A DNA stretch of 60,999 bases from a virus (Duplodnaviria; Caudoviricetes), in the IMG/VR virus record IMGVR_UViG_3300033148_005313, positions 1 to 60,999 of that record. One strand, 5' to 3'. How positions within the stretch are numbered: position 1 is the first letter of the stretch; every line of letters starts with the position of its first letter. A program made the position numbers and the translations under genes. The notes below the pieces were generated by a model. It was not told the origin of the DNA, did not search any database, and saw only the letters and a program-made list of their open reading frames with translations. This document shows positions 26,482-60,999 of the stretch, piece after piece.

Positions 26482-26943
26482 TCACCCGACCTGTTCGCCG
26501 TGGGGAACGCCGACACCCTCCGTCGCCTCCGAGAGATCGAGCTCGAACGCCTCCGGAAACGACCCGGGGGCCACGCCGGGCGGCGCCTCCTCGTCCGGCT
26601 CTTGGGGCGCGAAGTCAGTGGCTCCCTTGTCCCACAAGAAACGCTCCTGCCCCGGCGTGAACCTCGCCTCGAGGGCGTCGGCCTGGCGAAGCAGTCGCGC
26701 GATGGTCCGGTCGATCTCGCGCGGGCGGAAACCGCACCTAACCACGAGCCGCGGGACGCGCGTCGCCGGTATGCCGACGTCGGCTCCGAGCGTGACGACC
26801 ACGGCCCGCTCACTCCCGAACATGGGCTCCACGCTCACGGGGTAGGCGCGGCCCCCGGGCGACAAGTAGCGTTCGTGCTCGTCCTGCACGAGTGCGCCGC
26901 CCCACATGACCCAGTGGACGAGTCGACGTAGCAGCTCTCTCAT
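26482..26943 (-). CDS. Hypothetical protein
   Basis: AGGAG RBS; between TerL and portal. Confidence 0.5.
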   Translation of the reverse strand: MRELLRRLVHWVMWGGALVQDEHERYLSPGGRAYPVSVEPMFGSERAVVVTLGADVGIPATRVPRLVVRCGFRPREIDRTIARLLRQADALEARFTPGQERFLWDKGATDFAPQEPDEEAPPGVAPGSFPEAFELDLSEATEGVGVPHGEQVG

Positions 26944-27279
26944 TTTCGTGCTCCTTCCATGCTTTCACGAACGCGACGACGCGGCGCATGGCCTCCGCCA
27001 GCGACTCGATGAATGACCGAGCGGCACGGACCCAGGTCGCGAGCGTCTCACGCACCTTCGCCAGGGCGCGCCTGAGCGCCTCCCGGTCGGCCACGAGGGG
27101 TATCACCCGCGGAAGCATCGTAACGACGCTGGCGGGCTCCTGAGGGGCGGCGCGGACCATCATAGATGCGATCTCCTCGCCGGTCAACGGAACCCTCGAT
27201 TTGGCCGTAATCACGGTGGCTCGTCTCATCGGCTGTGCTCCTCTCGAAATGCCTTGATTTCGTGGTTTCCGGCCCATCC

Positions 27280-27520
27280 GCCGAAATCACGCCGGGCAGT
27301 TCGGGTCGGATACTAGGACCTTTGCCAGCGGGATTTAGCTAGAAATAGCGTGGATTTCGCCACAGCTAAATCTCCATATATCCGTTAGGGCGCTGCCAGG
27401 CCCCTATACGCGCGAGATCACTTTGGGAAATAGCATTTAGCACGAGGTCCCCTCGCGCGCGGGCGCGCCGGCGCCCCGGCGCGCGCATTGGGAGCTAAAT
27501 CCCGTGAAATCGCTAAATCC
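27280..27520. repeat. Iteron-like GCTAAAT(C) cluster with a GC hairpin
   Basis: GCTAAAT on + at 27365, 27494, 27512 and on - at 27333, 27435, plus variants; hairpin 27463-27484. Confidence 0.65.
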
Positions 27521-27522
27521 GG

Positions 27523-29379
27523 TCATATCGGCAGCTTCTCCCGCAGCTTCTTGAGATTCTCCAGCCCGTCGGATAGCACCCCGTCGAGCGTCTCCTTCGT
27601 GGCCTTTGCCCGGGCGACGGAGGCCTCGTCGATCGGCTCGCCGCCCGTGACCTCCGTGGACACGATCTGCCGTCCGTGGAGCGAGGCCATGTAGGTGCAA
27701 CCGGCGACTGCATCTGATGTATCTTTGCTGCCGTTGACGGGATGCTCGACCTTCTTCCCGAGCTTCAGCTCAAGGTGCCGGTACTCGCGCAGCCAGTACG
27801 TGTCTCCGTACACGAGCTTCCGCTCGTGGATCAAGCCCTTCAGGGTTCCGTACGGCTCGATCTTCTTGTCCACGCTCACGAGCGCCGTCTGGACGCCCTG
27901 GGCCGAGAGCAGTTGTCGCGTGTCCTCCGACTCGAAGCCGTCCGTGGAGACGAGGGCGATATTGAAGCCGCGTGCCCGGAGGTGATACACGAGCTGCCGG
28001 CACCGCTCGAAGCTGATCCGGCCGCCGACCTCCTGGGGCATGACGCGGGCCGCGATATCTACTACGACGCGGATCTTGTCGTCGGCGCCCTCGAGGGCGT
28101 AGGGATCGAAGTCGCAGTGGGCCATGCCGATGCCTGTGGCGTTGCTCACCGTCGAGTAGTCGAAGTGCACGAAGTACTCGGCATGGGCGACCGGCTTGAA
28201 CCAGTCGGCGATGCTGATGATCGGCGTCTCGTCGTCGCCCTCGCCGACATGAATGATCGGGTCTTGGTGGTCGGGGTCCGGCCCGCGCCCTTCGGGCGGC
28301 GGGGGTTCCGGCGGCGTGGCCCCGCCGACGCCGCCCATGATCTTCTCGGCCAGCCCGTCGAACGGCTGTAGCGCCGCCGAGGGCATCGCCCCGAGGTGAC
28401 GCTTGCTCGTTTCGGCGTCGCGGTCGAAGCTCGGCCAATAGCGCTCGGGAACCTCGATCGGCGGTTCGCAGTACGGTTTCCAGTTGACGTGCTCCACGCC
28501 GTCAAGTTCCCACGTCGCCGCTCGGCTCACGTAGAGGCGCTCGTCGCCGGTCTTCGTCGCCTCCTCGATCATAGTCATGGCGACGCCGCCGGCCCACGAC
28601 GGCGAGGTGATTCGGATGGCTTTGCCGTGGTGACGGGGGCAGCGCGTGAGCATCTGCGTGAACGCCAGCAGGTCCAGGTCCTCGGCCCGGCGCAGGCCGG
28701 CCTCGGTCACCGTCTCGGGGAAGAAGTCGAACTCATCGAGCACGTAACCGTAAATCGCCTCGCCGAGGATGCCGCGGTCCTCGCTCGTGGCCGCGTGGAC
28801 CTCGAGCGGGATCTCGTCGCCCTGGTAGTCGAGGAACTTCAGCGTCGTCGCCGTGGGGACCACCTCGAACTGCGACGAGAACCACGGCGACTTCTCGATG
28901 AACTGCTGCGCATAGCGGAAGACGACCTTCTTCGCCTGCTTGGCCGAGACGGACATGACGGGGATGTTGATCAGCGTCCCGGGTTCGAGCTCGTTGCCCT
29001 CCCAGAACCAGCCGTCGCGGATTCCGACGAGCACCTCGTAGGTCATGCGGGCGACGCACCCCCCAGCCCAATATGACTTGCCGCCGCCCTTGCCCCACAT
29101 GCAGACGGCACCGAGGTACTTGTCGTCGAACACGTTGACGAAGTGCTCGCGGATAGGCAGCCGGAGGTTGACGCCGCCGAAGAACTCGGGGTCGTCGATC
29201 CACGTGCTCGCGGGTTGGAACGGGTCGGTCTCGGGTAGCACGCGCTGGGCGGCGAGGTGCTCGGCGCGGGCCTGCAGCTCATAGAGCAGGAGCCGCGCCT
29301 CTTCGACGGAGCGCACGTTCATGCCTTCGACGACGGCGAGGAGCCGGGCGGCGTCGGGGGGGGTCATGCGCAGCAGCAC
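27523..29379 (-). CDS. terL: Terminase large subunit
   Basis: Walker A WGKGGGKS, Walker B YVLDEFD, ITSP motif, nuclease HFDYS...STDGF...HPVNGSKDTSDAVAG. Confidence 0.92.
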   Translation of the reverse strand: MLLRMTPPDAARLLAVVEGMNVRSVEEARLLLYELQARAEHLAAQRVLPETDPFQPASTWIDDPEFFGGVNLRLPIREHFVNVFDDKYLGAVCMWGKGGGKSYWAGGCVARMTYEVLVGIRDGWFWEGNELEPGTLINIPVMSVSAKQAKKVVFRYAQQFIEKSPWFSSQFEVVPTATTLKFLDYQGDEIPLEVHAATSEDRGILGEAIYGYVLDEFDFFPETVTEAGLRRAEDLDLLAFTQMLTRCPRHHGKAIRITSPSWAGGVAMTMIEEATKTGDERLYVSRAATWELDGVEHVNWKPYCEPPIEVPERYWPSFDRDAETSKRHLGAMPSAALQPFDGLAEKIMGGVGGATPPEPPPPEGRGPDPDHQDPIIHVGEGDDETPIISIADWFKPVAHAEYFVHFDYSTVSNATGIGMAHCDFDPYALEGADDKIRVVVDIAARVMPQEVGGRISFERCRQLVYHLRARGFNIALVSTDGFESEDTRQLLSAQGVQTALVSVDKKIEPYGTLKGLIHERKLVYGDTYWLREYRHLELKLGKKVEHPVNGSKDTSDAVAGCTYMASLHGRQIVSTEVTGGEPIDEASVARAKATKETLDGVLSDGLENLKKLREKLPI

Positions 29380-29594
29380 CTCGCGAGGTCGAGTTCATCC
29401 CATAAATCGCCGCATGTCGCGCACTGATATGCGTCGATGGTTATTGGTTTTGGTGTTCCGCAGACGGGGCATCGGTGTGTTTTCAGGTTACTACCGGCGA
29501 GATAGATCAGGGGGCTATCGCCGATGTGATAGACCATCTCGCATCGACGGCATTGGAAGCCTGTTATCCGTCCCGCGATTGCCTTCTTAGCCAT
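29364..29594 (-). CDS. Small Cys-rich protein
   Basis: CRRC, CPVC and CATCGDLWD...CCC. Confidence 0.6.
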   Translation of the reverse strand: MAKKAIAGRITGFQCRRCEMVYHIGDSPLIYLAGSNLKTHRCPVCGTPKPITIDAYQCATCGDLWDELDLARCCCA

Positions 29595-29787
29595 CGCAGC
29601 ACCCCTCCGCGAAGTCCTCATCGTCCCACATCTCGCCGCAGGCCGGGCAGACGTAGCCGTGCGCCGGGTCGAGGCTGCACCTGTCGTCGAGGCACTCGGG
29701 GCACGGCCCGCAGTCCTCCGTGGCCTCGGTCTTCGGCGTGAGTACCCCGCACCGGCTTCCCTTCCAGCAGTCGACTTGGTTAGCCAT
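29587..29787 (-). CDS. Small Cys-rich protein
   Basis: CPEC and CPACGEMWD...CC. Confidence 0.6.
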   Translation of the reverse strand: MANQVDCWKGSRCGVLTPKTEATEDCGPCPECLDDRCSLDPAHGYVCPACGEMWDDEDFAEGCCDG

Positions 29788-30185
29788 CAGGGGGTCTCCC
29801 CCCCATCGCCCTCCGCCTCCACCGCCATTCCGTGTTCGTAGTCGATGGCCCTGACGGCCGCGGTGTCCGCCCGCAGGCCGCACATCGCGAGGTCGGGGAC
29901 GTACGCGGCGCAGGCGGCGCCGAGGCAGATCAGGAACGGCTCGGGCCTCACGAACTGGACGGGTTCCTGTGGTTGGGCCGGTGTGCCGTCGGCTGTAGCT
30001 ATGGCGACCTTCGACTGCTCGCGCTGGTCCTTGCGCACCTCCTTGACCGTGTGGAGGAACGTCATCTGCGCGGCGATCATCTGCCCTATCGACAGCATCG
30101 GACAGACGAGCTGTTTCTGCTCAGGGACCTCGGGGTCCTGGCCGTCAGCAGGTGTCGGGGGCTGATCGGTCGGGTGTCTTGTCAT
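29787..30185 (-). CDS. Hypothetical protein (CP...C...CA.Y...C motif)
   Basis: GAGGAG RBS; Cys pattern shared with 60217..60501. Confidence 0.55.
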   Translation of the reverse strand: MTRHPTDQPPTPADGQDPEVPEQKQLVCPMLSIGQMIAAQMTFLHTVKEVRKDQREQSKVAIATADGTPAQPQEPVQFVRPEPFLICLGAACAAYVPDLAMCGLRADTAAVRAIDYEHGMAVEAEGDGGETP

Positions 30186-31443
30186 CGGTGGTGCTCCTCT
30201 CTGTGGGTTGAGCGGCTGGATGGACGGGGTCGGTCTCGTCGACCGTCGGAAACGGCCCGCTCCCCGGCGGGGGAGGCGGAAGGTCCTTGATGGGCGGAAG
30301 AGAGATGCGACTGTCCTTTATCAATTCACCCTCGGTCTCTGCCTCGTCGGCCGGTGGCTTCCCCATCGTCTGCGGCTCGATATCCTCCAGCGCAGCAGCC
30401 TCGCGCGCCCATTGGCCGAGCACGTCGATGGAAACGATCCGGTTACCACCGTCTTGGTACTTCCGGTCTATCACTCCCAGGATGCAGAATGACAGCGGTG
30501 TGTCGTTGGCGCCGCGCACGAATGGCTCGGTCTCCGCGCCGTCACACGGACGCAGGGGTATCTGGTCGGCGATGTGGTCGAAGTGGGCCTTGCGCAGTTG
30601 GTCCACGAGCCAGCCTCGGTTGAGTGAGGTTTCAATCTGCAGGGACACGGTGTCCTTCGTGAGATGCCACTGCTCAGCATCGTCAACCGTCGGCGCCTTC
30701 CTCATCGTCTGCGGCTCGGTGTCCTTGCGGGGGTCGGGGTCCTGCAGGTGCGCCACCTGCGGGTCGCCGAGGAACGGCTCGGTCTCGCCCTCCCTCGCCT
30801 TCCCTAAGATCGCCTGCGCCAGCTCGTGCGGTTCGGCGAGCTCGGTGCGCTGGCATTCCGCCCGCAGTTCACCGAGGAATGGTTCACATTCCGGCCAGTG
30901 ACTACAGCGCTCGCTGGAATGTCCTACGTAGATTCCCCTGTACGAACAGTATATCTCGCCAGTCATCTCTCGCTCGGTGCAGGGCGCCCGATCCATCCTC
31001 GGCATGACCGGCGGGGCGCAGAAAGAACACCGCTGAACGGCACCAACCAAGCAGTCACGGCACTCCTGTAGGAGCAGCGTTCCTGGCTCCGCGGTCGCCT
31101 CCTCCTCCCGCCGCTCGCGGTTTACCTGGCGCAGCTTCTTGACGACGGTGACGAGGGTGCCGACGCGTCTTCGGTAGTCGTCGGTCACGAGGAGGATCGT
31201 GCGCCGTCCTGTTCCCCGGCACTTGGTACACGGCGCTCCTTGATCGGTCAGGCCGTCGTCATCGCAAGCTGCGCACTTCTCAATTCTTATCTGCTGGCTG
31301 ACCAACCCGTCCAGCTCATCGTCGCTCATCGCCTCGATCTCTTCGACCGTCTTCATGGGGCGCTCCTCTCTTTTGGTGGACTCGTAACCGACACCATCCC
31401 CGCAGTCGGGGCACCCACTGAGGCACCACTCGATCTTGCTCAC
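30145..31443 (-). CDS. Mosaic hypothetical protein with DnaJ-like CxxC motifs and internal repeats
   Basis: CAAC...CTKCRGTG; repeated ETEPF and EPQTM.K. Confidence 0.5.
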   Translation of the reverse strand: MSKIEWCLSGCPDCGDGVGYESTKREERPMKTVEEIEAMSDDELDGLVSQQIRIEKCAACDDDGLTDQGAPCTKCRGTGRRTILLVTDDYRRRVGTLVTVVKKLRQVNRERREEEATAEPGTLLLQECRDCLVGAVQRCSFCAPPVMPRMDRAPCTEREMTGEIYCSYRGIYVGHSSERCSHWPECEPFLGELRAECQRTELAEPHELAQAILGKAREGETEPFLGDPQVAHLQDPDPRKDTEPQTMRKAPTVDDAEQWHLTKDTVSLQIETSLNRGWLVDQLRKAHFDHIADQIPLRPCDGAETEPFVRGANDTPLSFCILGVIDRKYQDGGNRIVSIDVLGQWAREAAALEDIEPQTMGKPPADEAETEGELIKDSRISLPPIKDLPPPPPGSGPFPTVDETDPVHPAAQPTERSTTDDKTPDRSAPDTC

Positions 31444-53220: not shown

Positions 53221-54654
53221 CTACGCCGCCAGCGCGCCGTCCTCGATCACGAAGCCGACCGCGCCGCTCTCGTCCACGCGGGCCATCCATACCTGGTAGC
53301 CGTTCTCGGCCGCCATCTCGCGAATCAGGGCGAGGTTCTTCTGGTCGAACCGCTCGCCGTCGTCGATCCGGATGACCTTGATGCCGCTGTCCTCGGCCAT
53401 CGCCACGGCCATCGCCACGCGGAGCTTGACGCCCGTACCCTCCTGCGCCAGCGGGTGCTCTACGCCGTCTTCACCGACCCACGTGAGCCCGTCGTCGCCG
53501 AAGCCGAGGCCCGGCACCTTCAAGTCAGCGCCGGCGACCAGGACGCGCTTCTCCGCGTCGACGCCCTTGATCTCGTTGGAGAGAGCCGTGGAAGCCGCGT
53601 CCTGCGTCGACTGTACCTGCAGCTTGGCCGCCCGATCGTCGAACGCTCGCGCCTGGGTCCGGGCCTCGTCGGCGCCGGTGACCTGCGCGTCCAGGTCGGA
53701 GTAGTCGGGGTCGGGGACTTCGACGGGAGTGGGGAGCTTCTCGACGGTCTCCTCGGCCTTCCCGAGTTCGGTTTCGAGATGCTCTAACGTACCGACGAGG
53801 TGATTCCGATTCTCGACCGCCTTCCCTAGCTCGGCCGTCAACCGTGCGACCTCTACGGTCGCCTGTGCCAACTCTCGCTTTCCACGGTCCTGCAGGTCGA
53901 CGAAGGTCTGGGCCTCGGCCTGCGCGTCGTTCAACGCCTTCTGCTTCGCGCTCTCCTCGTCGTTGGCCGCGCGCCACTCAGCCTCCCGCTGCGTGCGCTG
54001 CGCGAGGATCTCCGTCACGTCAGGCACGTCCGGTCGCTCGTCCGGCGCCTCGATCTCGTTAGCCGCGGCCTTCGCGCTGTCACGCGCGGAGTTGACCCCT
54101 GTGCGCTTCACGTAGAGCGCGTCTCGCCGCCCGTCGAGCGCGGATAGTTCGTCGGTCAGCCCGGCGAGCTCGATGGCCGTGTCAAGCTGGTCCTTCGGGT
54201 CCGCGTCGAGAAAGGTCGTCAGGTCCAGCGTGAACCGGCCGATGAGTTCGTTGAGAAGCGTCTGCGGGGAGTTGTAGGTCAAGCTCCCCTCGGCGTTGGT
54301 CACGACGAGGCCGCTGTCCTTGTAGACGCGCGCCCCGGTCTCCTCGCCCTCTTCGTCGAGCACCGCCTCGGTTCGGAACCGGCGCCGGACGACGATGTCG
54401 CCCAGGTCGAGCGTGATCTCCGCCTCCTCGGCGCCATCGCTGACCGGACTGCCCGGGGCGATCTCGGAGACGACTCCCTCCCCGCCGAGCGCGCACCAGA
54501 TCATGTTCAGCACCGTCGACTTCCCGACGCCGTTCGCGCCGGTGATCAGCACCAGCGGGTCGTCCGGGTCGGTCACCAGCGTGATCGCCTTCAGGCGCAT
54601 GAACCCCTCGCCCTGGAGGCTTACCACCGTCAGGCCTTTCAGGTCTTCGGACAT
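53221..54654 (-). CDS. SMC/Rad50-like ATPase
   Basis: GANGVGKST Walker A, central coiled coil, IRIDDGE Walker B. Confidence 0.85.
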   Translation of the reverse strand: MSEDLKGLTVVSLQGEGFMRLKAITLVTDPDDPLVLITGANGVGKSTVLNMIWCALGGEGVVSEIAPGSPVSDGAEEAEITLDLGDIVVRRRFRTEAVLDEEGEETGARVYKDSGLVVTNAEGSLTYNSPQTLLNELIGRFTLDLTTFLDADPKDQLDTAIELAGLTDELSALDGRRDALYVKRTGVNSARDSAKAAANEIEAPDERPDVPDVTEILAQRTQREAEWRAANDEESAKQKALNDAQAEAQTFVDLQDRGKRELAQATVEVARLTAELGKAVENRNHLVGTLEHLETELGKAEETVEKLPTPVEVPDPDYSDLDAQVTGADEARTQARAFDDRAAKLQVQSTQDAASTALSNEIKGVDAEKRVLVAGADLKVPGLGFGDDGLTWVGEDGVEHPLAQEGTGVKLRVAMAVAMAEDSGIKVIRIDDGERFDQKNLALIREMAAENGYQVWMARVDESGAVGFVIEDGALAA

Positions 54655-54694
54655 GGCCGTTGCTCCTCTCTGTCATGTTGCTCCGTCGAGTCCG

Positions 54695-55210
54695 CTACTC
54701 GTCGTCGCCCATATCATCATCTTCCGGATCATCCTCGTCCAGCGGCGGCGGAGGAAGGGTCGTAGCAGAGGCCAGCGGGCGACCCGCCTTCTTCTTCGGC
54801 TTGTGCGTCCTCGTCTTGTGCAAGGCCAATCCCTGTTTCGAATCGAAGGTACGGCTACACATATCGCAGTCATGCGAGACCCGATGAGGGTCATCGTCAA
54901 CGTCATCCTCGACCTTGTGCATCCTCGCATTGTGCATCTTCAACCCGCGCGCCGTCGTGAATGAGCGATCGCACTCGTCACACTCATAAGGGGCGCGGGC
55001 GGAGGTGTCATCGTCGACGTCCTCTTCGACGGGCGGAGGTGGCTTCGACGACTCCTCGGCCTCCGCCGACGCGCCGGACGAATCCCTAATGCCGACTAGC
55101 CGGATTACGGCACCTGCACGAAGTAACGCATCGAACACCTCGGAGAGTCCATCATGACGGTCGGAATCGACCTCGACGAGGTAACCCCATTTCGCCTGCT
55201 GTGACATCAT
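54695..55210 (-). CDS. Protein with two classical C2H2 zinc fingers
   Basis: YECDECDRSFTTARGLKMHNARMH and HDCDMCSRTFDSKQGLALHKTRTH. Confidence 0.85.
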   Translation of the reverse strand: MMSQQAKWGYLVEVDSDRHDGLSEVFDALLRAGAVIRLVGIRDSSGASAEAEESSKPPPPVEEDVDDDTSARAPYECDECDRSFTTARGLKMHNARMHKVEDDVDDDPHRVSHDCDMCSRTFDSKQGLALHKTRTHKPKKKAGRPLASATTLPPPPLDEDDPEDDDMGDDE

Positions 55211-55237
55211 CGATAGGCTCCTCTCTGTTTTGCGGTT

Positions 55238-56878
55238 TCACCCGCGCATATCGTCGACCACCGCGTTCACGACGTCGGCCTTCCGCTCCAGCGCGTCGAG
55301 CACCACCTCGTCCACCGTGCCCGCCGCGACCAGGTGGACGTACGTGACGTGGTTCTCCTGACCCGGACGGTGAATGCGGGCCCGACTCTGCTCGTAGTTG
55401 CCGAGGCTCCAGTCCAGCGAGTAGTAGAGGCCGTACCGGGCCCGGCTGAGGTCGATACCCAGGCCGCCGGCCTGCACCTGCACGGCGATGAGGTGACCGT
55501 TCCGCTGGAAGTCCTCGAGGTCGTTTTGCCGACCCGACAGCTCCCAGCACGTCATGTTGAGATCGCGACAGACCTCGTGTACGGCGTCAAGGTCGTTATG
55601 GAACCGGCAGAAGACGACGACCGACGGGGGGTCCGCGCCGGCGAAGCCCATATCCTCGAGGACCTCGGCCAGCAGCTCCCTCTTCGAGTCGTCCACGACG
55701 GCGGTCTCGCCGTCAATAGGCAGGTAGCCGCTCGTGATTTGCTGGAGCCGCATTAGCCGGGCGAGGCCGTTCGCCGCCGTGATCTCGCCTGTTCCGACCT
55801 GAGCCCGCAGCTCCTTGTCCATCTGCCGGTAAACCCGCGCCGCGCCCTTCGACAGCTCGCACGTCCGGGTCTGGTCCGTGGTCGGAGGCAGGTCGAGCAC
55901 GTCGTCGGCCCGTACGCGGAACGCAATCCGGTACATGCGCTCGTGGAGCTCGTCCAGGTTCTTGAACCCGTCGAGCTGCCTATAGCTCCGCAGGCCGAGC
56001 TCCCTCATCCACGACACGAGCACGCCGGCGTTCACGCCGAGCTGGCCCGCGCAGTCGGCCACCGACCTACCGCCGAAAATCTGGCCCGTCACCCATGAGC
56101 GCAGGGCGCCGCCGACCTTAGCCTCGGCCTCCGCGATCTTGCGCCACTTGTAGGCAACGGCGCGGGCGACGCCCGACGCCCGGGCGCCCTCGGCCGCGGA
56201 GGCGTGCCCGGCACGTTCCCACGCCGGAGTCGCGTGCGTCGTCTTCACGCCGTCGGTATGGGTCGCGTACTCGCTCACGAACAGTCGGTGGGAGTCGCCG
56301 AAGATCGAGGGGTCGAGCGCCCGGTACTGCGCGTAGATGTCCAGGGGGTCGTGCGGCATCGGCGTGCCGGTGAGGGCGAGGCGCGTGCCGCTGCGGGCGG
56401 ATACACGGGCCGCGATGTTCTGGCAGACGAGCGACGCCTTACCCTCGGGGCCCTTGATCCTGTGACTCTCGTCAAAGACCAGGCCGTCCCACCGGCACCG
56501 CGTGAGCAAGGCCTTCATCGGATCACGCAGGACGGCCTCGTAGTTGAGGACGGCCATGATGGGCTTGTTGAATTGGTGCCCGTTACGAACGGCCGTCTCC
56601 AGCGCCTCCGCGCGCTTCGTCGTGGAACCCTTGACGAGCGGCAGCACGTCCCAGCGTTCGGGGTGGTGCTTCGCCGCCTCCTTCGGCCAGACGGCGATCA
56701 CGCTCTTCGGGCACAGGACCAGGACGCGCGAGCAGTCGCGCGCGGCCAGGAGGTCAAGCGCGACCTTCGTTTTCCCTGTTCCCATATCCAACGCCAGCAT
56801 CGCCGCCGGCTTGTCTTCGCAAAACTGAAACGCATCGTCCTGGTGTTTCCATCTGTCCGTGGGGGTCGCCGTTGCCAA
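55238..56878 (-). CDS. SNF2-family helicase with HTH insertion
   Basis: DMGTGKT, DESHRIK, LTGTP, RLQQI, GLGIDL, QSRARIHRPGQ. Confidence 0.9.
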   Translation of the reverse strand: MATATPTDRWKHQDDAFQFCEDKPAAMLALDMGTGKTKVALDLLAARDCSRVLVLCPKSVIAVWPKEAAKHHPERWDVLPLVKGSTTKRAEALETAVRNGHQFNKPIMAVLNYEAVLRDPMKALLTRCRWDGLVFDESHRIKGPEGKASLVCQNIAARVSARSGTRLALTGTPMPHDPLDIYAQYRALDPSIFGDSHRLFVSEYATHTDGVKTTHATPAWERAGHASAAEGARASGVARAVAYKWRKIAEAEAKVGGALRSWVTGQIFGGRSVADCAGQLGVNAGVLVSWMRELGLRSYRQLDGFKNLDELHERMYRIAFRVRADDVLDLPPTTDQTRTCELSKGAARVYRQMDKELRAQVGTGEITAANGLARLMRLQQITSGYLPIDGETAVVDDSKRELLAEVLEDMGFAGADPPSVVVFCRFHNDLDAVHEVCRDLNMTCWELSGRQNDLEDFQRNGHLIAVQVQAGGLGIDLSRARYGLYYSLDWSLGNYEQSRARIHRPGQENHVTYVHLVAAGTVDEVVLDALERKADVVNAVVDDMRG

Positions 56879-56908: not shown

Positions 56909-57136
56909 CTACTCGACGACGGCGACCGTCTTCGTGTTGATGCCGAGGCGCTTCAGCCAGCAATTCTCCGAGCCGGCCAACGCCTGAAACGAGATGCCCA
57001 GCCGCTTCGCGATCCAGGTCTTCGACTCGCCCGCGTTGAACGACGCGACGATGAATTCGCGGACACACCGCCCGCCGAGCCGTCGCCGCTCCACCTCGCG
57101 CATCTTGTCGGTCTTCTGAATCTCCGTCTGGGCCAT
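56909..57136 (-). CDS. HTH DNA-binding protein
   Basis: SKTWIAKRLGISFQAL; AAGGAGG RBS; first gene after a promoter. Confidence 0.7.
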   Translation of the reverse strand: MAQTEIQKTDKMREVERRRLGGRCVREFIVASFNAGESKTWIAKRLGISFQALAGSENCWLKRLGINTKTVAVVE

Positions 57137-57170
57137 CGAACCGCCTCCTTCCTCTGTCCTACGGGCGGTC

Positions 57171-57200
57171 ATCATACGTCTTTACGTTTAGAAATGTCAA
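57171..57200 (-). promoter_or_regulatory. sigma70-type promoter of the replication operon
   Basis: TTGACA-18 nt-TATGAT. Confidence 0.7.
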
Positions 57201-57745
57201 GACGGCGGCGGTATCGGCGGCGTCGGATATACCGAAGACGGCAAGGTCTTCTCTGGGGGTGTCGAGGATGCCTGCGGTTTCGCCGGCAATTCCGGAGGAA
57301 TCTGCGTCGTCCGATCGACGACGGCGATCTGCTCCTTCTTGGCCGCCATCCCCATCGCCTTCGCCCCGATGACCGATAACTCCATGCGTTCCCTCACGTA
57401 GTTGGTCATCTCCCGACCGTTGCGGGAGATCTGACGGCTCGCATACTGACCCGCCCTGAAGATACCTCGAAGCACCTTCTTCCAGCGCCGTCCCGTCTCC
57501 GGCAACGCGTCGTCGGCAGAGGCGATCACGATGCCCCAACCGCCGCCCGGCGGCGCGGGGCGATGCCCGGCGTGGCCCGCGCGCAGGATCGCGCGGCGCA
57601 TCTTGTCCTTCCCGGCAAGATCCATCGCGACGCCGGTGTCGTCCTCGATCATCGTGTAGGACAGCTCGGTCCCCGGCTTCTGGTCCCTGAAGTACTCCGT
57701 CAACGTAATCAAGTCCTCGCTCGGGGGAAACAGATTGGTCGGCAT
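57197..57745 (-). CDS. Hypothetical protein, candidate accessory of the RAMP-repeat locus
   Basis: Starts 25 nt after pentamer unit D; possible winged-helix N-terminus; Pro-rich tail. Confidence 0.65.
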   Translation of the reverse strand: MPTNLFPPSEDLITLTEYFRDQKPGTELSYTMIEDDTGVAMDLAGKDKMRRAILRAGHAGHRPAPPGGGWGIVIASADDALPETGRRWKKVLRGIFRAGQYASRQISRNGREMTNYVRERMELSVIGAKAMGMAAKKEQIAVVDRTTQIPPELPAKPQASSTPPEKTLPSSVYPTPPIPPPS

Positions 57746-57769
57746 GATGGGCCTCTCTTCCTTGGTAGT

Positions 57770-57896
57770 CGTTGAGTTGCGTTGCGCGGAAACGTGTCGC
57801 GGAGCACAGAGCGGCGGCGAAACGCAAAGCTGCGAGGGGCATTGCGGCGTGCTGCAAGGCGCCGTGGAGCGAAGCGTGGCGCAGAAGCGTGATGCG
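57770..57896 (-). ncRNA. Pentamer-periodic unit D (25 x YDC-NN, ends CAACTCAACG), candidate guide RNA
   Basis: cgcat cacgc ttctg cgcca cgctt cgctc cacgg cgcct tgcag cacgc cgcaa tgccc ctcgc agctt tgcgt ttcgc cgccg ctctg tgctc cgcga cacgt ttccg cgcaa cgcaa ctcaa cg. Confidence 0.8.
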
Positions 57897-57908
57897 CTGG
57901 TGAATACC

Positions 57909-58472
57909 CTACTTTACCCACTCCATCTCGACGATGCTAAAGCGTCCGTAGTACCCGCCGTTCTCGGGGCGGAAACGACCGACGCCGACGAACAGCCCGG
58001 CGGTCTCCAGGTGCTCCTTGAAGATGGCCTCGGTGATCTCGGCGTCGAGTACGTGGAACGTCACCGTCGCCTCCCACGCCTTCGTCGTCGGGTAGCGACG
58101 CCATACGCGCTTGCTCGTGCTACCCTTCGACCCTTGGCTGTCCGCGTAGATCATGTCGCACTCGAACTCGTCCTTACGGATCCCGAGCATGACCGGGTCG
58201 ACGACCATCACCCCCGACACGAACAGCTTGGTGAATGTCGCCTGACCCTTGTTCTTACGCTTCATACCCGTGCGCGCAGCGGCGGCGTCGAGAACCTTCT
58301 TGAACGCCATCGGCGGGATGAAGACCTCATCGTTCTCATCGTAGTGGAGGTGCTCCATCCAAGTGCGCTCGTCGTACGCTTCGGCGGCCTCCTTGTCCTC
58401 CTTCGGAACACCTATGGGCTTGCTTTGAGAGTACGGACCTTCCGACTTCAGCTTGACGATTGCGACTGGCAT
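57909..58472 (-). CDS. Stand-alone RAMP / Cas7-like RNA-binding protein
   Basis: FIPPMAFKKVL (RAMP IP...K motif) and C-terminal glycine-rich loop AGLFVGVGRFRPENGGYYGRF; 187 aa. Confidence 0.8.
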   Translation of the reverse strand: MPVAIVKLKSEGPYSQSKPIGVPKEDKEAAEAYDERTWMEHLHYDENDEVFIPPMAFKKVLDAAAARTGMKRKNKGQATFTKLFVSGVMVVDPVMLGIRKDEFECDMIYADSQGSKGSTSKRVWRRYPTTKAWEATVTFHVLDAEITEAIFKEHLETAGLFVGVGRFRPENGGYYGRFSIVEMEWVK

Positions 58473-58490
58473 GGCGGTACTCCTCTCTTT

Positions 58491-58785
58491 CGTTGAGTTG
58501 CGTTACGGCGTAGTGTGAGGCGAAGTGCTGTGCTGTAGGGCATGGCAGCGAAAAGCGGCGTGGAGCGGGGCAATGTCCTACAGGCAATGATGGCGAACAT
58601 CGTTGAGTTGAGGGGCGCAGCGACGAGCTGTAGTGCAAAGTATCGCGAAGTGATGCACGGCGGCGTGAAGCGAAGTGGTGGACGACACTATGATAGCAGA
58701 CATCGTTGAGTTGAGGTGCAAAGCGATGAGGCGTACCGCGCGGCAAAGCGCTGCGTGGTGTTGAGCCGTGGAGCGCAGCGATGTC
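58491..58785 (-). ncRNA. Array of three pentamer-periodic units A (58704-58785), B (58601-58682) and C (58491-58577), candidate guide RNAs
   Basis: 16, 16 and 17 in-phase YDC-NN pentamers, each ending CAACTCAACG; linkers begin ATGT(CT/TC)GC(T/C)ATCAT. Confidence 0.8.
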
Positions 58786-58794
58786 ATCACACAG

Positions 58795-59304
58795 TCAGTC
58801 TATCGGGAGTACCAGCCCGTCGCCGGCGTCGCGCTCTCCGCCCTCGTGCGGCTGCACCCGCAGGCCGGGGATCGCGGCCGGCTCGTCGGCGTCCCTGGCT
58901 CGGAGGTACTCTGTGATGGCGTTGTTCGTGATCGGCGGCGCCTCGGCGCGAACGGCGGAGAGCTGCGCGTGGAGACGGTCGGGCTCGAGGGAGGAGGCTA
59001 CCTGCCTGCCCTTGGGTCGACGCAACTTGGCGACCTGCGCCTCGAGGGTGATGATCGCTACGTCCTTCCTCTCGATCTCGGCACCAGCCAAGTCGAGGTA
59101 CGCCCACGACTTCTTCGCCCGCGCCTCCGCACGCTCGCGCTTCTCCTCGAGGCCGTTGGCCGTCGCGATCATCGCGTAGGACCAGGCCGTCGTGTGCTCG
59201 CCCAGTTCGGAGAACAGCGACCACAGGTGGCGCCTCGCGCGCCAGAGCGACCGCAGCGTCTCGAAGAACGTCGGGGCCCGCTGTCTCTTAGGAATCGGGA
59301 TCAC
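58795..59304 (-). CDS. Coiled-coil hypothetical protein
   Basis: GGAGGTG start; ends 10 nt before unit A. Confidence 0.55.
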   Translation of the reverse strand: MIPIPKRQRAPTFFETLRSLWRARRHLWSLFSELGEHTTAWSYAMIATANGLEEKRERAEARAKKSWAYLDLAGAEIERKDVAIITLEAQVAKLRRPKGRQVASSLEPDRLHAQLSAVRAEAPPITNNAITEYLRARDADEPAAIPGLRVQPHEGGERDAGDGLVLPID

Positions 59305-59494
59305 CTCCTCGGGCCGGTGCCGGCGCAGCCACGACTTCTATCCGCAGCAATGTGGTGTCTCTCGCCGCATAGGTGCCGACCTGCATCTTGCAAAGACGCG
59401 CGGCGATGAAGCGCTCCAGCACCTTTCGGATTCCCGGTTCGTCGGACTCGACCTCGATCCGCAAGGCAACGTCGAATATAGAGGACCGCATCAC
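59288..59494 (-). CDS. Hypothetical protein
   Basis: Coupled overlaps with neighbours. Confidence 0.45.
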   Translation of the reverse strand: MMRSSIFDVALRIEVESDEPGIRKVLERFIAARLCKMQVGTYAARDTTLLRIEVVAAPAPARGGDPDS

Positions 59495-60009
59495 CCCTCA
59501 CCCCCCATCTCCGTCGTCGGCTCGACCGGCGCGCCCTTCGTGAACTGGTCCAGCGGGCACCATCCGGCGTAAAGGTCATCGAGGGGAATCGGAACACGAT
59601 CCTCGTTGTCCGTCACGGCATCGCGGACCTTGACGATCTCCCTTCGTTCGACGCCGTCGTTCGCGTAGGCGATGTTGACCACGTGGACGCACCGCAGGCT
59701 TGACCGATGAACCCATTCGGCGTGAGGCTCGGCCCGCACGAACCGGCCCGCCTTTGCCAGTTCGTTGCCCGTCCTCAGCGCCGCGCGGAGCGCGACCCAC
59801 GCCGCCTGCTTCGCCGACTCGTAGCCGTAGGCCGAGAAGCCGCGGACCGCGGTCGGAACGCCCGTGCCCTCGTCTCCGACGAAGACGTTGGCGCCGACTA
59901 TGGGGCCACCGCCGGGTAGACAGTCCTTCTTCTCGCGCAGCGACTCGTCGCGTCCGCGCCACATCCAGAACGTGTAGAACTCGACGGACTCAACAGGGAT
60001 CATCGTCAT
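59491..60009 (-). CDS. Hypothetical protein
   Basis: 172 aa ORF in the gene stream. Confidence 0.55.
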   Translation of the reverse strand: MTMIPVESVEFYTFWMWRGRDESLREKKDCLPGGGPIVGANVFVGDEGTGVPTAVRGFSAYGYESAKQAAWVALRAALRTGNELAKAGRFVRAEPHAEWVHRSSLRCVHVVNIAYANDGVERREIVKVRDAVTDNEDRVPIPLDDLYAGWCPLDQFTKGAPVEPTTEMGGEG

Positions 60010-60013
60010 CGCC

Positions 60014-60214
60014 TCACCACCTCCCGTCGCAGATCGCCGCCGGCGAACGAGGCGGCGCGTCCATCGCCCGGGCGACGTGGCGCCCGAGCGTCACGACCAA
60101 CGTCGCGGAGACCGCGAGCAACGTCAACCAGGCCAGAAGGCACCCGACGCCGCGGCTGATTGACCAACCGATTCGCACCCGCCTGCGCGGGCGCTTGATC
60201 AGGAACCAGCCCAT
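60014..60214 (-). CDS. Small membrane protein
   Basis: Single hydrophobic segment. Confidence 0.45.
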   Translation of the reverse strand: MGWFLIKRPRRRVRIGWSISRGVGCLLAWLTLLAVSATLVVTLGRHVARAMDAPPRSPAAICDGRW

Positions 60215-60216
60215 GA

Positions 60217-60501
60217 TTATCCGTCCCCTTTCTCGATAAGAAAACGGACGAGTAAGCGATCGAGACGCGCCTCGATCCTGGCAGGCAGGTGTTCAAGCTG
60301 AGCAGCGATGCCGCCGAGGACCTCGACTTGCCTCGCGTGAGCGCAAGCGCCACGTCGATCCGGGTCGGTCGCGTTTGGACGATGCACCCACAGCGCGCAC
60401 TTCCCCTCGTCGCAGTCGGGCTGAACTTGGTGCAACGGCTGACCATCTACTTCTCCGGTTTTCCGTACCATCATGGACTCTTTGATAGGACACAGCATCA
60501 C
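60217..60501 (-). CDS. Hypothetical protein (CP...C...CALW...C motif)
   Basis: Cys pattern shared with 29787..30185. Confidence 0.55.
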   Translation of the reverse strand: MMLCPIKESMMVRKTGEVDGQPLHQVQPDCDEGKCALWVHRPNATDPDRRGACAHARQVEVLGGIAAQLEHLPARIEARLDRLLVRFLIEKGDG

Positions 60502-60839
60502 ACTTCCTCCCCTCCCCGCGCCGCGCGGTGCGCGTCGATCCAGGCGTCGACCGCTTCAACCGAACCCCAGCACACCGACGGCAGCTCGTTGACGACGAAC
60601 TTGGCGATGTTGACGAACGCCTCCTGGCTCGCCTCGTCCGCGCGGCAGACCGAGCCCGTGAAGTCGTTGGTCAGGACGGCTCGGAGGAAGTCGCCGGTCG
60701 GGCGGCCGTCGACGACGTAGCACGACAGCCCCTCCAGGATGCCCAGAGGGATCTTGAGCGCGTACCTCTTCGCCGCGGCGGCCATGTCCAGCACGAGCGC
60801 CTCTCGCGTCGTCTTGAGTCCGCAGATGTTTAGGTTCAT
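60498..60839 (-). CDS. Conserved phage hypothetical protein
   Basis: G.PTGDFLRAVL.ND...RAD...P..CWGS...V..W. Confidence 0.65.
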   Translation of the reverse strand: MNLNICGLKTTREALVLDMAAAAKRYALKIPLGILEGLSCYVVDGRPTGDFLRAVLTNDFTGSVCRADEASQEAFVNIAKFVVNELPSVCWGSVEAVDAWIDAHRAARGGEEV

Positions 60840-60999
60840 CGGTCACCTTCCTCCCGTCAGCAGTTCGGTCAGCACACAGGCCCACCCCATCACGCCGAGC
60901 ATGATCACCACAGCAGGACCGCGTCTCGGCCCGAGCAACTTCTCCGAACTGTCGACGATCACTAACGCGCAGCGATAGCCGAACCACAGCACCAGCACC

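What the first reader, a model, noticed from the sequence alone, without database searches (positions are those of the whole stretch)
58578..58713. Conserved 3' handle and mini-hairpin linker between units suggest precursor processing
Seen: units A and B are followed by CAACTCAACG-ATGT(CT/TC)GC(T/C)ATCAT. This folds as GATG-5 nt loop-CATC in one copy and GATG-5 nt loop-TATC (G.U) in the other, so pairing is preserved. After units C and D the handle runs straight into the purine-rich RBS of the next gene. A and C both start with GACAT. Inference: the linker acts like a CRISPR repeat, marking cleavage of a polycistronic transcript into unit-length RNAs. RAMP binding next to the RBSs could also autoregulate translation.
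Basis: partly seen in the sequence, partly recalled or inferred. Interest (0 to 1): 0.7.

Follow-up and report, generated by a model that had tools for sequence, protein, structure and literature searches.

The report
Guide-RNA array of a phage VIPR system
The repeated "handle" marks the 3' end of each guide RNA in a phage VIPR system, an RNA-guided DNA-silencing system first described in 2026, so this is a new member of a known kind; the proposed mini-hairpin is not supported.

Summary
The sequence facts are right. CAACTCAACG occurs exactly 4 times, all on the minus strand within 950 nt. Two copies are followed by a conserved 14-mer and two run into a ribosome-binding site.

The units are not CRISPR-like repeat-spacer units. 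Each is a tract of 16, 16, 17 or 26 pentamers with a fixed scaffold (Y-D-C) and two variable bases. This matches the vrRNAs of VIPR systems described in four bioRxiv preprints (April-October 2026).

- The 187-aa "RAMP" (57909-58472, minus) is a Vipr homologue. Its family profile hits PDB "SUSP1 Vipr protein" at E 2.3e-7, and its fold matches Cas7.
- The next gene (57197-57745) matches the SUSP1 vap1 ORF by profile.
- The "handle" is the last two in-register repeats, with the variable bases fixed as AA, plus the first two bases of an aborted repeat. An (NNCAA)x2+NN ending closes tracts in 65 of 80 related viral loci and 25 of 35 genomic loci.
- The 14-mer is a minimal 3' tail. Its hairpin folds no better than shuffled sequence.

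Excision from a long transcript is plausible but untested. Translational autoregulation is an open hypothesis. Verdict: a new member of a known kind, with a non-GGY scaffold and no pseudoknot tail.

The parts
58704..58785 (-). vrRNA A: 16 pentamer repeats (58785-58706) plus terminal CG.
   Evidence: the scaffold C is in register in 16 of 16 pentamers; exact 10-mer.
58690..58703 (-). Conserved 14-nt tail after vrRNA A (ATGTCTGCTATCAT). A non-conserved 7-nt spacer follows (58689-58683).
   Evidence: Fold no better than shuffles.
58601..58682 (-). vrRNA B: 16 pentamer repeats (58682-58603) plus CG. Handle at 58610-58601.
58587..58600 (-). Conserved 14-nt tail after vrRNA B (ATGTTCGCCATCAT). A 9-nt spacer follows (58586-58578).
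58491..58577 (-). vrRNA C: 17 pentamer repeats (58577-58493) plus CG. It has no tail; the Shine-Dalgarno sequence of vipr begins 3 nt downstream.
57909..58472 (-). vipr: 187-aa Cas7-like RAMP, homologous to SUSP1 Vipr.
   Evidence: Profile against PDB 36pp_D 'SUSP1 Vipr protein', E 2.3e-7. AF2 pLDDT 93. Foldseek Cas7/Csm3/Cmr4, E 1e-8 to 1e-5. Profile hit in the phiSUSP1 genome, E 1.3e-9.
57770..57901 (-). vrRNA D: 26 pentamer repeats in one register (57901-57772) plus CG. It runs into the RBS of the next gene.
   Evidence: The length exceeds the published range of 9-16 repeats and is unexplained.
57197..57745 (-). vap1-like accessory gene (182 aa): a winged-helix-like N-terminal domain followed by a long helical hairpin.
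   Evidence: The family profile A2 hits an ORF beside vipr in 58 of 94 loci, including the SUSP1 vap1 ORF at E 4.9e-6. AF2 pLDDT 89.5. Foldseek gave only weak matches to winged-helix regulators, 0 at E <= 0.001.

Best explanation
The region is the guide-RNA array of a VIPR (Viral Interference Programmable Repeat) system on the minus strand. The order is vrRNA A, B, C, then vipr, then vrRNA D, then a vap1-like gene.

Each 'unit' is a tract of pentamers. Positions 1-3 form a scaffold (Y, not-C, C) and positions 4-5 are variable guide bases.

By analogy with SUSP1, where this was shown by cryo-EM, one Vipr protomer binds each pentamer. The filament then presents the variable dinucleotides to double-stranded DNA, skipping one target base per repeat, and silences competing mobile elements.

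I infer that this completes the last protomer's site and recruits no further protomer. The 14-nt conserved sequence after A and B is a minimal, essentially unstructured 3' tail. It takes the place of the 40-60-nt pseudoknot tail of SUSP1.

Also inferred: the array is transcribed as part of the long leftward operon, and host RNases trim the transcript down to the Vipr-protected tracts, cutting in the unprotected tail and spacer.

Odds: VIPR identity about 0.93. Handle as terminal repeats about 0.9. Maturation from a precursor about 0.55.
For: Protein evidence:
- A1 profile against PDB 'SUSP1 Vipr protein', E 2.3e-7.
- Foldseek best hits are Cas7 of type VII and type III complexes.
- The neighbouring gene matches the SUSP1 vap1 ORF.

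RNA evidence in the window:
- 75 pentamers in 4 tracts. Position 1 is Y in 71 of 75, position 2 is not C in 73 of 75, position 3 is C in 74 of 75, and positions 4-5 are near uniform.
- Periodic runs of 28, 18, 17 and 16 pentamers lie side by side on one strand. Fifty Markov surrogates gave a mean longest run of 13 and a maximum of 17.
- Whole units fold less stably than shuffles, z +0.4 to +1.4, as expected for single-stranded guides.

Family conservation:
- 10 of the 53 loci found by the two-handle pattern encode a Vipr homologue of 32-39% identity on the same strand, with 3-8 exact handles. 3 more carry arrays.
- Periodic tracts ending CAAnnCAA occur in 65 of 80 viral Vipr loci, 175 ends in all. 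The next two bases are C or G, then G or A. The same ending occurs in 25 of 35 genomic loci.
- The motif is 4 times denser on the vipr strand, 1.02 against 0.24 per kb.
- In phiSUSP1 itself every tract ends in a partial repeat, GG, before the tail.

Tail assignment: the 14-mer keeps a fixed position relative to the upstream handle, but it sits in different registers relative to the next tract (handle spacings 103 and 110 nt). It therefore belongs to the upstream unit.

Processing:
- No sigma-70-like promoter and no terminator lies inside the array.
- No Rfam ribozyme was found.
- The upstream genes overlap or abut on the same strand.
- Published mechanism and architecture.
Against: - No RNA data exist for this record, so mature ends, strand and expression are all inferred.
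- The scaffold is not the canonical GGY. Position 2 is only 51% G and position 1 is a pyrimidine.
- SUSP1's G1-contact residue D177 aligns with an arginine here.
- Tract D has 26 repeats, outside the published range of 9-16.
- No DNA target obeying the 1-nt-skip rule was found in the 0.99 Mb held. The best scores, 21-22 of 32 or 34 and 29 of 52, lie within the shuffled-guide null.
- The promoter scan knows only the E. coli-type consensus, so promoters of an unknown 65%-GC host could be missed.
- The 14-mer has no relatives in the collections scanned, so its conservation rests on two copies.
Confidence: 0.62

Rival explanations
1. The linker folds into a 4-bp mini-hairpin that acts as a specific cleavage signal, read by the RAMP as Cas6 reads a CRISPR repeat.
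For: The stems can be drawn in both copies, and the only difference in the 3' arm keeps pairing (G-C to G-U). Some other lineages have clear hairpins after the tract, for example L080 and L100.
Against: - Fold energies are -2.9 and -3.2 kcal/mol with z about -0.1 to -0.2; 88 and 75 of 200 shuffles fold as well.
- In copy A the predicted fold is a different one.
- In the ATTTGTTTGT lineage, which shares the handle, the equivalent stem is complete in 6 of 12 distinct tails, and variation breaks pairing rather than compensating.
- Units C and D have no linker at all.
- In the parts I read, the preprints report no nuclease activity for Vipr.
Confidence: 0.1
2. Each unit is its own transcription unit, and the conserved 14-mer is part of a promoter for the next vrRNA.
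For: The linker is the most A+T-rich stretch of the array and appears only where another unit follows. phiSUSP1 has a consensus promoter directly upstream of vrRNA1.
Against: - No promoter-like site lies in the array.
- The distance from the 14-mer to the next tract varies (7 and 9 nt).
- Unit A, the first in the array, has no such element upstream.
- Units C and D must in any case share a transcript with the downstream genes or be cut from it.
Confidence: 0.15
3. The handle next to the RBS mainly serves translational control. Vipr assembling on unit C (and D) occludes the Shine-Dalgarno sequence and so limits its own synthesis (and that of Vap). This may hold in addition to the guide function.
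For: The tract ends 3 nt before the vipr SD. A CAAnnCAA motif ends within 80 nt upstream of the vipr start in 49 of 80 loci, mostly 6-35 nt upstream. Tail-less tracts that run into an RBS also occur in GGY relatives, for example L131 and L081.
Against: Position alone is no evidence of regulation. The same layout would arise if the vrRNA were simply cut off the mRNA. I found no mention of autoregulation in two preprints.
Confidence: 0.25
4. The repeats act as DNA, for example as iterons or protein-binding sites of a replication module, and not as RNA.
For: The locus lies among replication and recombination genes: an SNF2 helicase and an SbcC-like ATPase.
Against: - The motif shows strict strand bias and sits on the gene strand in 80 loci.
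- The 5-nt scaffold-plus-variable pattern is the same as in sequenced and structurally resolved vrRNAs.
- The locus is linked to a RAMP, not to an initiator protein.
Confidence: 0.03

Closest known systems
Type II VIPR systems (Escherichia phage SUSP1, Pseudomonas fulva prophage); bioRxiv 10.64898/2026.04.26.720920 and 10.64898/2026.04.26.720927
   Same: - A small Cas7-like Vipr and a vap1-like gene.
- vrRNAs of about 16 pentamer repeats flanking vipr on its strand.
- A scaffold pyrimidine at position 3 and variable positions 4-5.
- Each tract closed by a partial repeat and then a conserved 3' element.
- A phage context.
   Different: - The scaffold is Y-D-C here, not G-G-Y.
- The tail is a 14-nt unstructured sequence, or absent, rather than a 40-60-nt pseudoknot.
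- The last two guide dinucleotides are fixed as AA.
- Three vrRNAs lie upstream of vipr and one between vipr and vap. SUSP1 has one upstream and three downstream of vap1.
- One tract has 26 repeats.
Non-canonical VIPR arrays (GAC/NN, CAC/NN, WGT/NN, TGH/NN); bioRxiv 10.64898/2026.10.21.760802 (passages read)
   Same: 5-nt periodic arrays beside Vipr-like folds, with a trinucleotide other than GGY. In my own tally of 49 classifiable relatives there are 15 GG, 12 C-G, 9 C-A, 4 G-A, 1 G-T, 2 Y-D and 6 mixed.
   Different: The window's scaffold is degenerate at two positions: T makes up a third of position 1, and position 2 is G, A or T. That preprint names no such pattern in the passages I saw; its Fig. 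S10 was not visible.
Class 1 CRISPR crRNA with Cas7 backbone and Cas6 processing
   Same: The RAMP fold. The guide is capped by a conserved 3' element. Several guides lie in tandem on one strand.
   Different: - There are no 23-50-nt direct repeats separating unique spacers.
- The guide is interrupted every 5 nt by scaffold bases.
- No homologue of cas1, cas2 or cas6 appeared among the 10 neighbouring proteins scanned.
- There is no stable repeat hairpin.
Hammerhead-interspersed and staggered VIPR arrays (types I and V; legends of Figs S18-S19 of the discovery preprint)
   Same: Several vrRNAs are released from one array. The authors speak of 'processed vrRNAs'.
   Different: No ribozyme match in the window. 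The units here are separated by 21-23 nt and do not overlap by 1 nt.

Membership tests
VIPR system | A Vipr protein: a small single-RRM RAMP with a G-loop and a thumb, homologous to SUSP1 Vipr | tested here: met
   Profile A1 against PDB 36pp_D, E 2.3e-7 over residues 91-181. Profile hit on the phiSUSP1 vipr ORF, E 1.3e-9. AF2 pLDDT 93. Foldseek Cas7/Csm3/Cmr4, TM about 0.5-0.6. The single-sequence match alone is weak, E 0.82.
VIPR system | vrRNA: at least 4 (typically 9-16) tandem pentamers with a conserved trinucleotide and variable NN, beside vipr | tested here: met
   Four tracts of 16, 16, 17 and 26 pentamers. C at position 3 in 74 of 75; positions 4-5 near uniform. The trinucleotide is Y-D-C, a 'related consensus', not GGY.
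VIPR system | An invariable 3' tail after the repeat tract (a pseudoknot in the SUSP1 clade) | tested here: inconclusive
   A conserved 14-mer follows 2 of 4 tracts, with no stable structure. The other 2 tracts run into an RBS. Relatives range from no tail to hairpin tails of about 55 nt.
VIPR system | An accessory vap gene in the operon | tested here: met
   The p182 family profile hits the SUSP1 vap1 ORF at E 4.9e-6, and an ORF beside vipr in 58 of 94 loci.
VIPR system | vrRNAs of about 100 nt are expressed and co-purify with Vipr | not testable with these tools
   No sequencing run was listed for the region.
VIPR system | The guide dinucleotides match a DNA target with one skipped base per repeat | tested here: inconclusive
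   Only the window and the held loci (0.99 Mb) were scanned. Nothing exceeded the shuffled-guide null, and no self-target was found. The public collections were not scanned.
CRISPR array with Cas6-type processing | Direct repeats of 23-50 nt separating unique spacers, with a repeat hairpin or handle cut by Cas6 | tested here: not met
   The only shared block is 10 + 14 nt. The 10-mer is part of the periodic tract. The hairpin is no better than shuffles.
Ribozyme-interspersed VIPR array | A hammerhead (or other self-cleaving) ribozyme between vrRNAs | tested here: not met
   Rfam: 0 matches at the gathering score in the window, and 0 at E <= 1 in 57600-58900. The linkers are only 21-23 nt long.

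The most novel reading that the evidence does not exclude
In this large Vipr clade the pseudoknot tail is dispensable. The short motif (N1N2-CAA)x2 plus N1N2 would itself set the 3' boundary and register of the Vipr filament. When the motif sits a few nucleotides from a Shine-Dalgarno sequence, filament assembly or the accompanying cleavage would couple guide maturation to translation of vipr and vap, a built-in feedback not described for VIPR.
Probability: 0.25. Interest if true: 0.55.

Novelty: new member of a known kind. Interest (0 to 1): 0.4.

Why it matters
VIPR is a newly described way of reading DNA with RNA. All of its biochemistry so far comes from two GGY-type systems with structured tails.

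This locus, and the several hundred relatives found here, show that the same protein family also works with C-first, degenerate scaffolds. They show tails shrunk to 14 nt or to nothing, and guides placed directly in the 5' UTRs of the system's own genes.

That gives specialists compact natural variants for three open questions:
- what nucleates and terminates the Vipr filament;
- how vrRNAs are matured, which I did not find addressed in the main texts I searched;
- which residues read the first two scaffold bases.

For genome annotation, a tract-ending CAAnnCAA motif on the vipr strand is a simple marker of vrRNA 3' ends in this clade.

Tried and rejected
- Rfam: no family matched in the window or the region.
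- DNA similarity to phage records: none.
- Close relatives by protein pattern: none in the viral contigs or the metagenome contigs.
- Relatives that share the 14-nt tail: a 16-nt junction word gave 10 viral loci, all chance matches with no periodic tract. A 24-position junction pattern gave 0 metagenome matches. The hairpin could therefore not be tested by covariation.
- Sequencing runs: none was listed, and no RNA holder was listed.
- Small ORFs starting at the ATG of the linkers (41-70 aa): rejected. They have no RBS, and the conservation is 5-nt periodic, not codon periodic.
- Linker as the conserved first repeats of the next tract: 6 of 8 linker pentamers fit Y-D-Y in the downstream register. 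But the two homologous 14-mers sit in different registers relative to their downstream tracts, so I rejected this reading.
- Sigma-70, sigma-54 and alphaproteobacterial promoter readings of the linker, done by eye: no convincing match. The scan found none.
- A purine after the terminal dinucleotide as a universal filament stop: it holds in 4 of 4 window units but in only 78 of 175 family ends. Rejected as a general rule.
- Target search with 0-3 skipped bases over the held 0.99 Mb: only the trivial self-match at skip 3.
- Earlier findings of this scan: not open.

Full report
**Observation.** All genes around the finding lie on the minus strand. On that strand the 10-mer CAACTCAACG occurs exactly four times, at 58713-58704, 58610-58601, 58500-58491 and 57779-57770, and nowhere else in the 60,999-base window. 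The first two copies are followed by ATGTCTGCTATCAT and ATGTTCGCCATCAT. The last two run into purine-rich ribosome-binding sites and the start codons at 58472 and 57745. Tracts A and C begin with GACAT. So the sequence facts in the finding are correct. The hairpin is another matter. The handle-plus-linker stretches fold at -2.9 and -3.2 kcal/mol, with z-scores of -0.09 and -0.18; 88 and 75 of 200 shuffles fold as well. Copy A prefers a different pairing.

**What the units are.** I read each unit backwards from the handle in steps of five. Every pentamer has C at its third position: 74 of 75 pentamers across tracts of 16 (A), 16 (B), 17 (C) and 26 (D) repeats. Position 1 is a pyrimidine in 71 of 75. 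Position 2 is G, A or T in 73 of 75. Positions 4 and 5 are close to uniform. The four periodic runs (28, 18, 17 and 16 pentamers when one miss is allowed) sit side by side on one strand. Fifty Markov surrogates of the window gave a mean longest run of 13 and a maximum of 17. No other place in the window combines the periodicity with the end motif. Whole units are less structured than their shuffles, z +0.4 to +1.4. The handle is therefore not a separate module. It is the last two in-register repeats with their variable bases fixed as AA, followed by CG, which is the first two bases of a repeat that is never completed.

**The neighbouring protein.** The 187-aa product of 57909-58472 has no Pfam match and one PHROG of unknown function. 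It has 228 homologues at E <= 0.001 in the large protein collection. A profile of 41 of them hits one PDB sequence, 'SUSP1 Vipr protein', at E 2.3e-7. It also hits one ORF of the phiSUSP1 genome at E 1.3e-9. The AlphaFold model (pLDDT 93) matches the Cas7 subunits of type VII and type III CRISPR complexes at E 1e-8 to 1e-5 and TM about 0.5-0.6.

**Literature.** 'Vipr' led to four bioRxiv preprints of April-October 2026.
- Discovery preprint (10.64898/2026.04.26.720920). I read the Results, the Discussion, the type-classification methods and some legends. It describes VIPR systems as a small ancestral RAMP (Vipr), an accessory gene (vap) and vrRNAs of about 100 nt. The vrRNAs are made of 9-16 pentamers in which GGY alternates with hypervariable NN, and they are followed by an invariable 3' tail. 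The NN bases recognise double-stranded DNA with one skipped base per repeat. The preprint defines seven types, some with related consensus repeats (NNNGG, YNNNG, NNNNG), staggered arrays and hammerhead-interspersed arrays.
- Structure preprint (10.64898/2026.04.26.720927). I read section 5 and passages. It shows one protomer per repeat. G1 and G2 are held by one protomer, and Y3 sits in a purine-excluding pocket of the next. A 3' pseudoknot caps the RNA.
- Third preprint (10.64898/2026.10.15.759431). I read the outline, two methods sections and passages. It treats the tail as what makes a vrRNA competent for Vipr complex formation.
- Fourth preprint (10.64898/2026.10.21.760802). I read passages. 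It reports 21 clusters with non-canonical trinucleotides such as GAC/NN and CAC/NN.

The window's locus fits this description, with a Y-D-C scaffold.

**Accessory gene.** The 182-aa product of 57197-57745 has 55 relatives in the representative library. A profile of 43 of them hits an ORF next to vipr, on its strand, in 58 of the 94 loci examined. One of these is the phiSUSP1 ORF annotated at 28031-28471, directly downstream of vipr, at E 4.9e-6. From its position I take this ORF to be the vap1 of the preprints. The model (pLDDT 89.5) has a winged-helix-like N-terminal domain and a long helical hairpin. Foldseek matches to winged-helix regulators are weak, with none at E <= 0.001. By gene content the locus looks type II-like. 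I could not check this against the authors' tree.

**Conservation of the handle.**
- A scan of viral contigs for two handles 85-115 nt apart gave 53 loci.
  - 10 of them encode a Vipr homologue of only 32-39% identity on the same strand, with 3-8 exact handles beside it.
  - 3 more carry periodic arrays without vipr in the held part.
  - The other 40 look like coding repeats or chance.
- Among the 80 best viral Vipr loci (43-52% identity), only 7 carry the exact 10-mer. But most end their tracts in the same way.
  - 175 periodic tracts in 65 of 80 loci end in CAAnnCAA, followed by two bases that repeat the clade's positions 1-2: C or G, then G or A.
  - The same holds in 25 of 35 loci from bacterial genomes of many phyla.
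  - The motif is about four times denser on the vipr strand.
- The scaffold varies by clade. Among the 49 classifiable relatives, 15 are GG, 12 C-G, 9 C-A, 4 G-A, 1 G-T, 2 Y-D and 6 mixed. The window itself classes as C-G.
- In phiSUSP1 all four tracts end with a partial repeat, GG, before the tail, and 3 of 4 end GGTAT-GG.

**The linker.** What follows the handle is lineage specific:
- ATTTGTTTGT... in one lineage;
- CAACGGTTCATTA... in another;
- a short hairpin-prone CAACGTCTCGAAG... in a third;
- tails of about 55 nt with two hairpins in L051 and L016;
- nothing at all before an RBS.

It is complete in only 6 of 12 distinct tails, and its 5' arm never varies. In the window the 14-mer is fixed relative to the upstream handle. 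It lies in different registers relative to the next tract, and spacers of 7 and 9 unrelated bases separate it from that tract. It is therefore a short 3' tail of the upstream unit, not the start of the next one. No relative with this tail was found.

**Mechanism.**
- Shown for SUSP1 by others: one Vipr per pentamer, the filament as guide, and silencing of double-stranded DNA.
- Shown here by homology and sequence: the window has the protein, the accessory gene and four tracts with the right anatomy on the right strand.
- Inferred: the terminal dinucleotide completes the last protomer's site while the absent scaffold pyrimidine recruits no further protomer, so the handle defines the 3' end of the filament.
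- Also inferred: the array is read through from the tightly packed upstream operon. Genes overlap or abut, and no promoter-like or terminator-like site lies in the array; the only promoter-like site is at 57200-57171. Host RNases would then trim the transcript to the protected tracts.
- Units C and D lie 3 and about 6 nt from a Shine-Dalgarno sequence. In 49 of 80 relatives an end motif lies within 80 nt upstream of the vipr start. This makes coupling to translation possible but unproven.

**What speaks against, or stays open.**
- There are no RNA data.
- The single-sequence match to SUSP1 Vipr is weak, E 0.82. The G1-contact residue D177 of SUSP1 aligns with an arginine that is invariant in this family, including its GG clades.
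- Tract D is far longer than published vrRNAs.
- No target was found in the 0.99 Mb held, and the public collections were not searched for targets.
- I did not find vrRNA biogenesis addressed in the searched main texts: 'biogenesis' and 'matur' have 0 occurrences in the discovery preprint, and 'processing' and 'precursor' have 0 in the third preprint.
They may already cover this clade.

**Verdict.** This is a real feature, correctly seen, and largely explained by a system published in 2026. It is a new member of a known kind, notable for its degenerate C-first scaffold, its minimal tail and its guides abutting ribosome-binding sites. The mini-hairpin is not supported. Precursor processing and autoregulation remain testable hypotheses.

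Noticed in passing
window 57772-57901 (minus strand): Tract D holds 26 pentamers in one unbroken register, starting 7 nt after the vipr stop codon. The published range is 9-16. A single CAA repeat at its 12th pentamer might mark an internal boundary between two abutting guides.
   Followed up: partly
window 57909-58472, residues 107-111 and 125-126 of Vipr: These alignment columns best separate relatives with G-first scaffolds (20 loci) from those with C-first scaffolds (24 loci). They flank the low-confidence thumb loop and lie next to the residue aligned with SUSP1 R138, a G2 contact. Relatedness of the sequences was not controlled.
   Followed up: partly
window 57171-57200 (minus strand): The only sigma-70-like promoter match in 57000-60999 (TTGACA, 18 nt, TATGAT; 11 of 12) lies just after the vap1-like gene. 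It sits upstream of a small ORF (56909-57175; by eye the start may be the ATG near 57137) whose sequence looks helix-turn-helix-like to me. It may mark the end of the VIPR transcription unit.
   Followed up: no
window 53221-56878 (minus strand): Downstream genes encode an SNF2-family helicase (55238-56878), a 171-aa protein with C2H2 zinc fingers (54695-55210) and an SbcC-like AAA ATPase of PHROG 1499 (53221-54654).
   Followed up: no
L022 5012-5140, L033 (reverse-complement coordinates) 6508-6533 and 6692-6719: Some relatives carry mini-units in which two exact handles are only 25-27 nt apart, separated by the lineage's conserved tail. These are tracts of about five pentamers.
   Followed up: no
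L137 (phiSUSP1 26500-30500), minus strand: Each SUSP1 vrRNA is preceded by a conserved leader of about 35 nt with inverted-repeat ends. vrRNA1 lies between a consensus promoter (TTGACA, 17 nt, TATACT) and the vipr RBS, so it too sits in the vipr 5' UTR.
   Followed up: no
L003, L008, L011, L028, L037, L044, L045 (viral contigs of one metagenome): The handle 10-mer also occurs inside long 24-nt tandem repeats that lack pentamer periodicity. These are unrelated to VIPR and are probably coding repeats.
   Followed up: no
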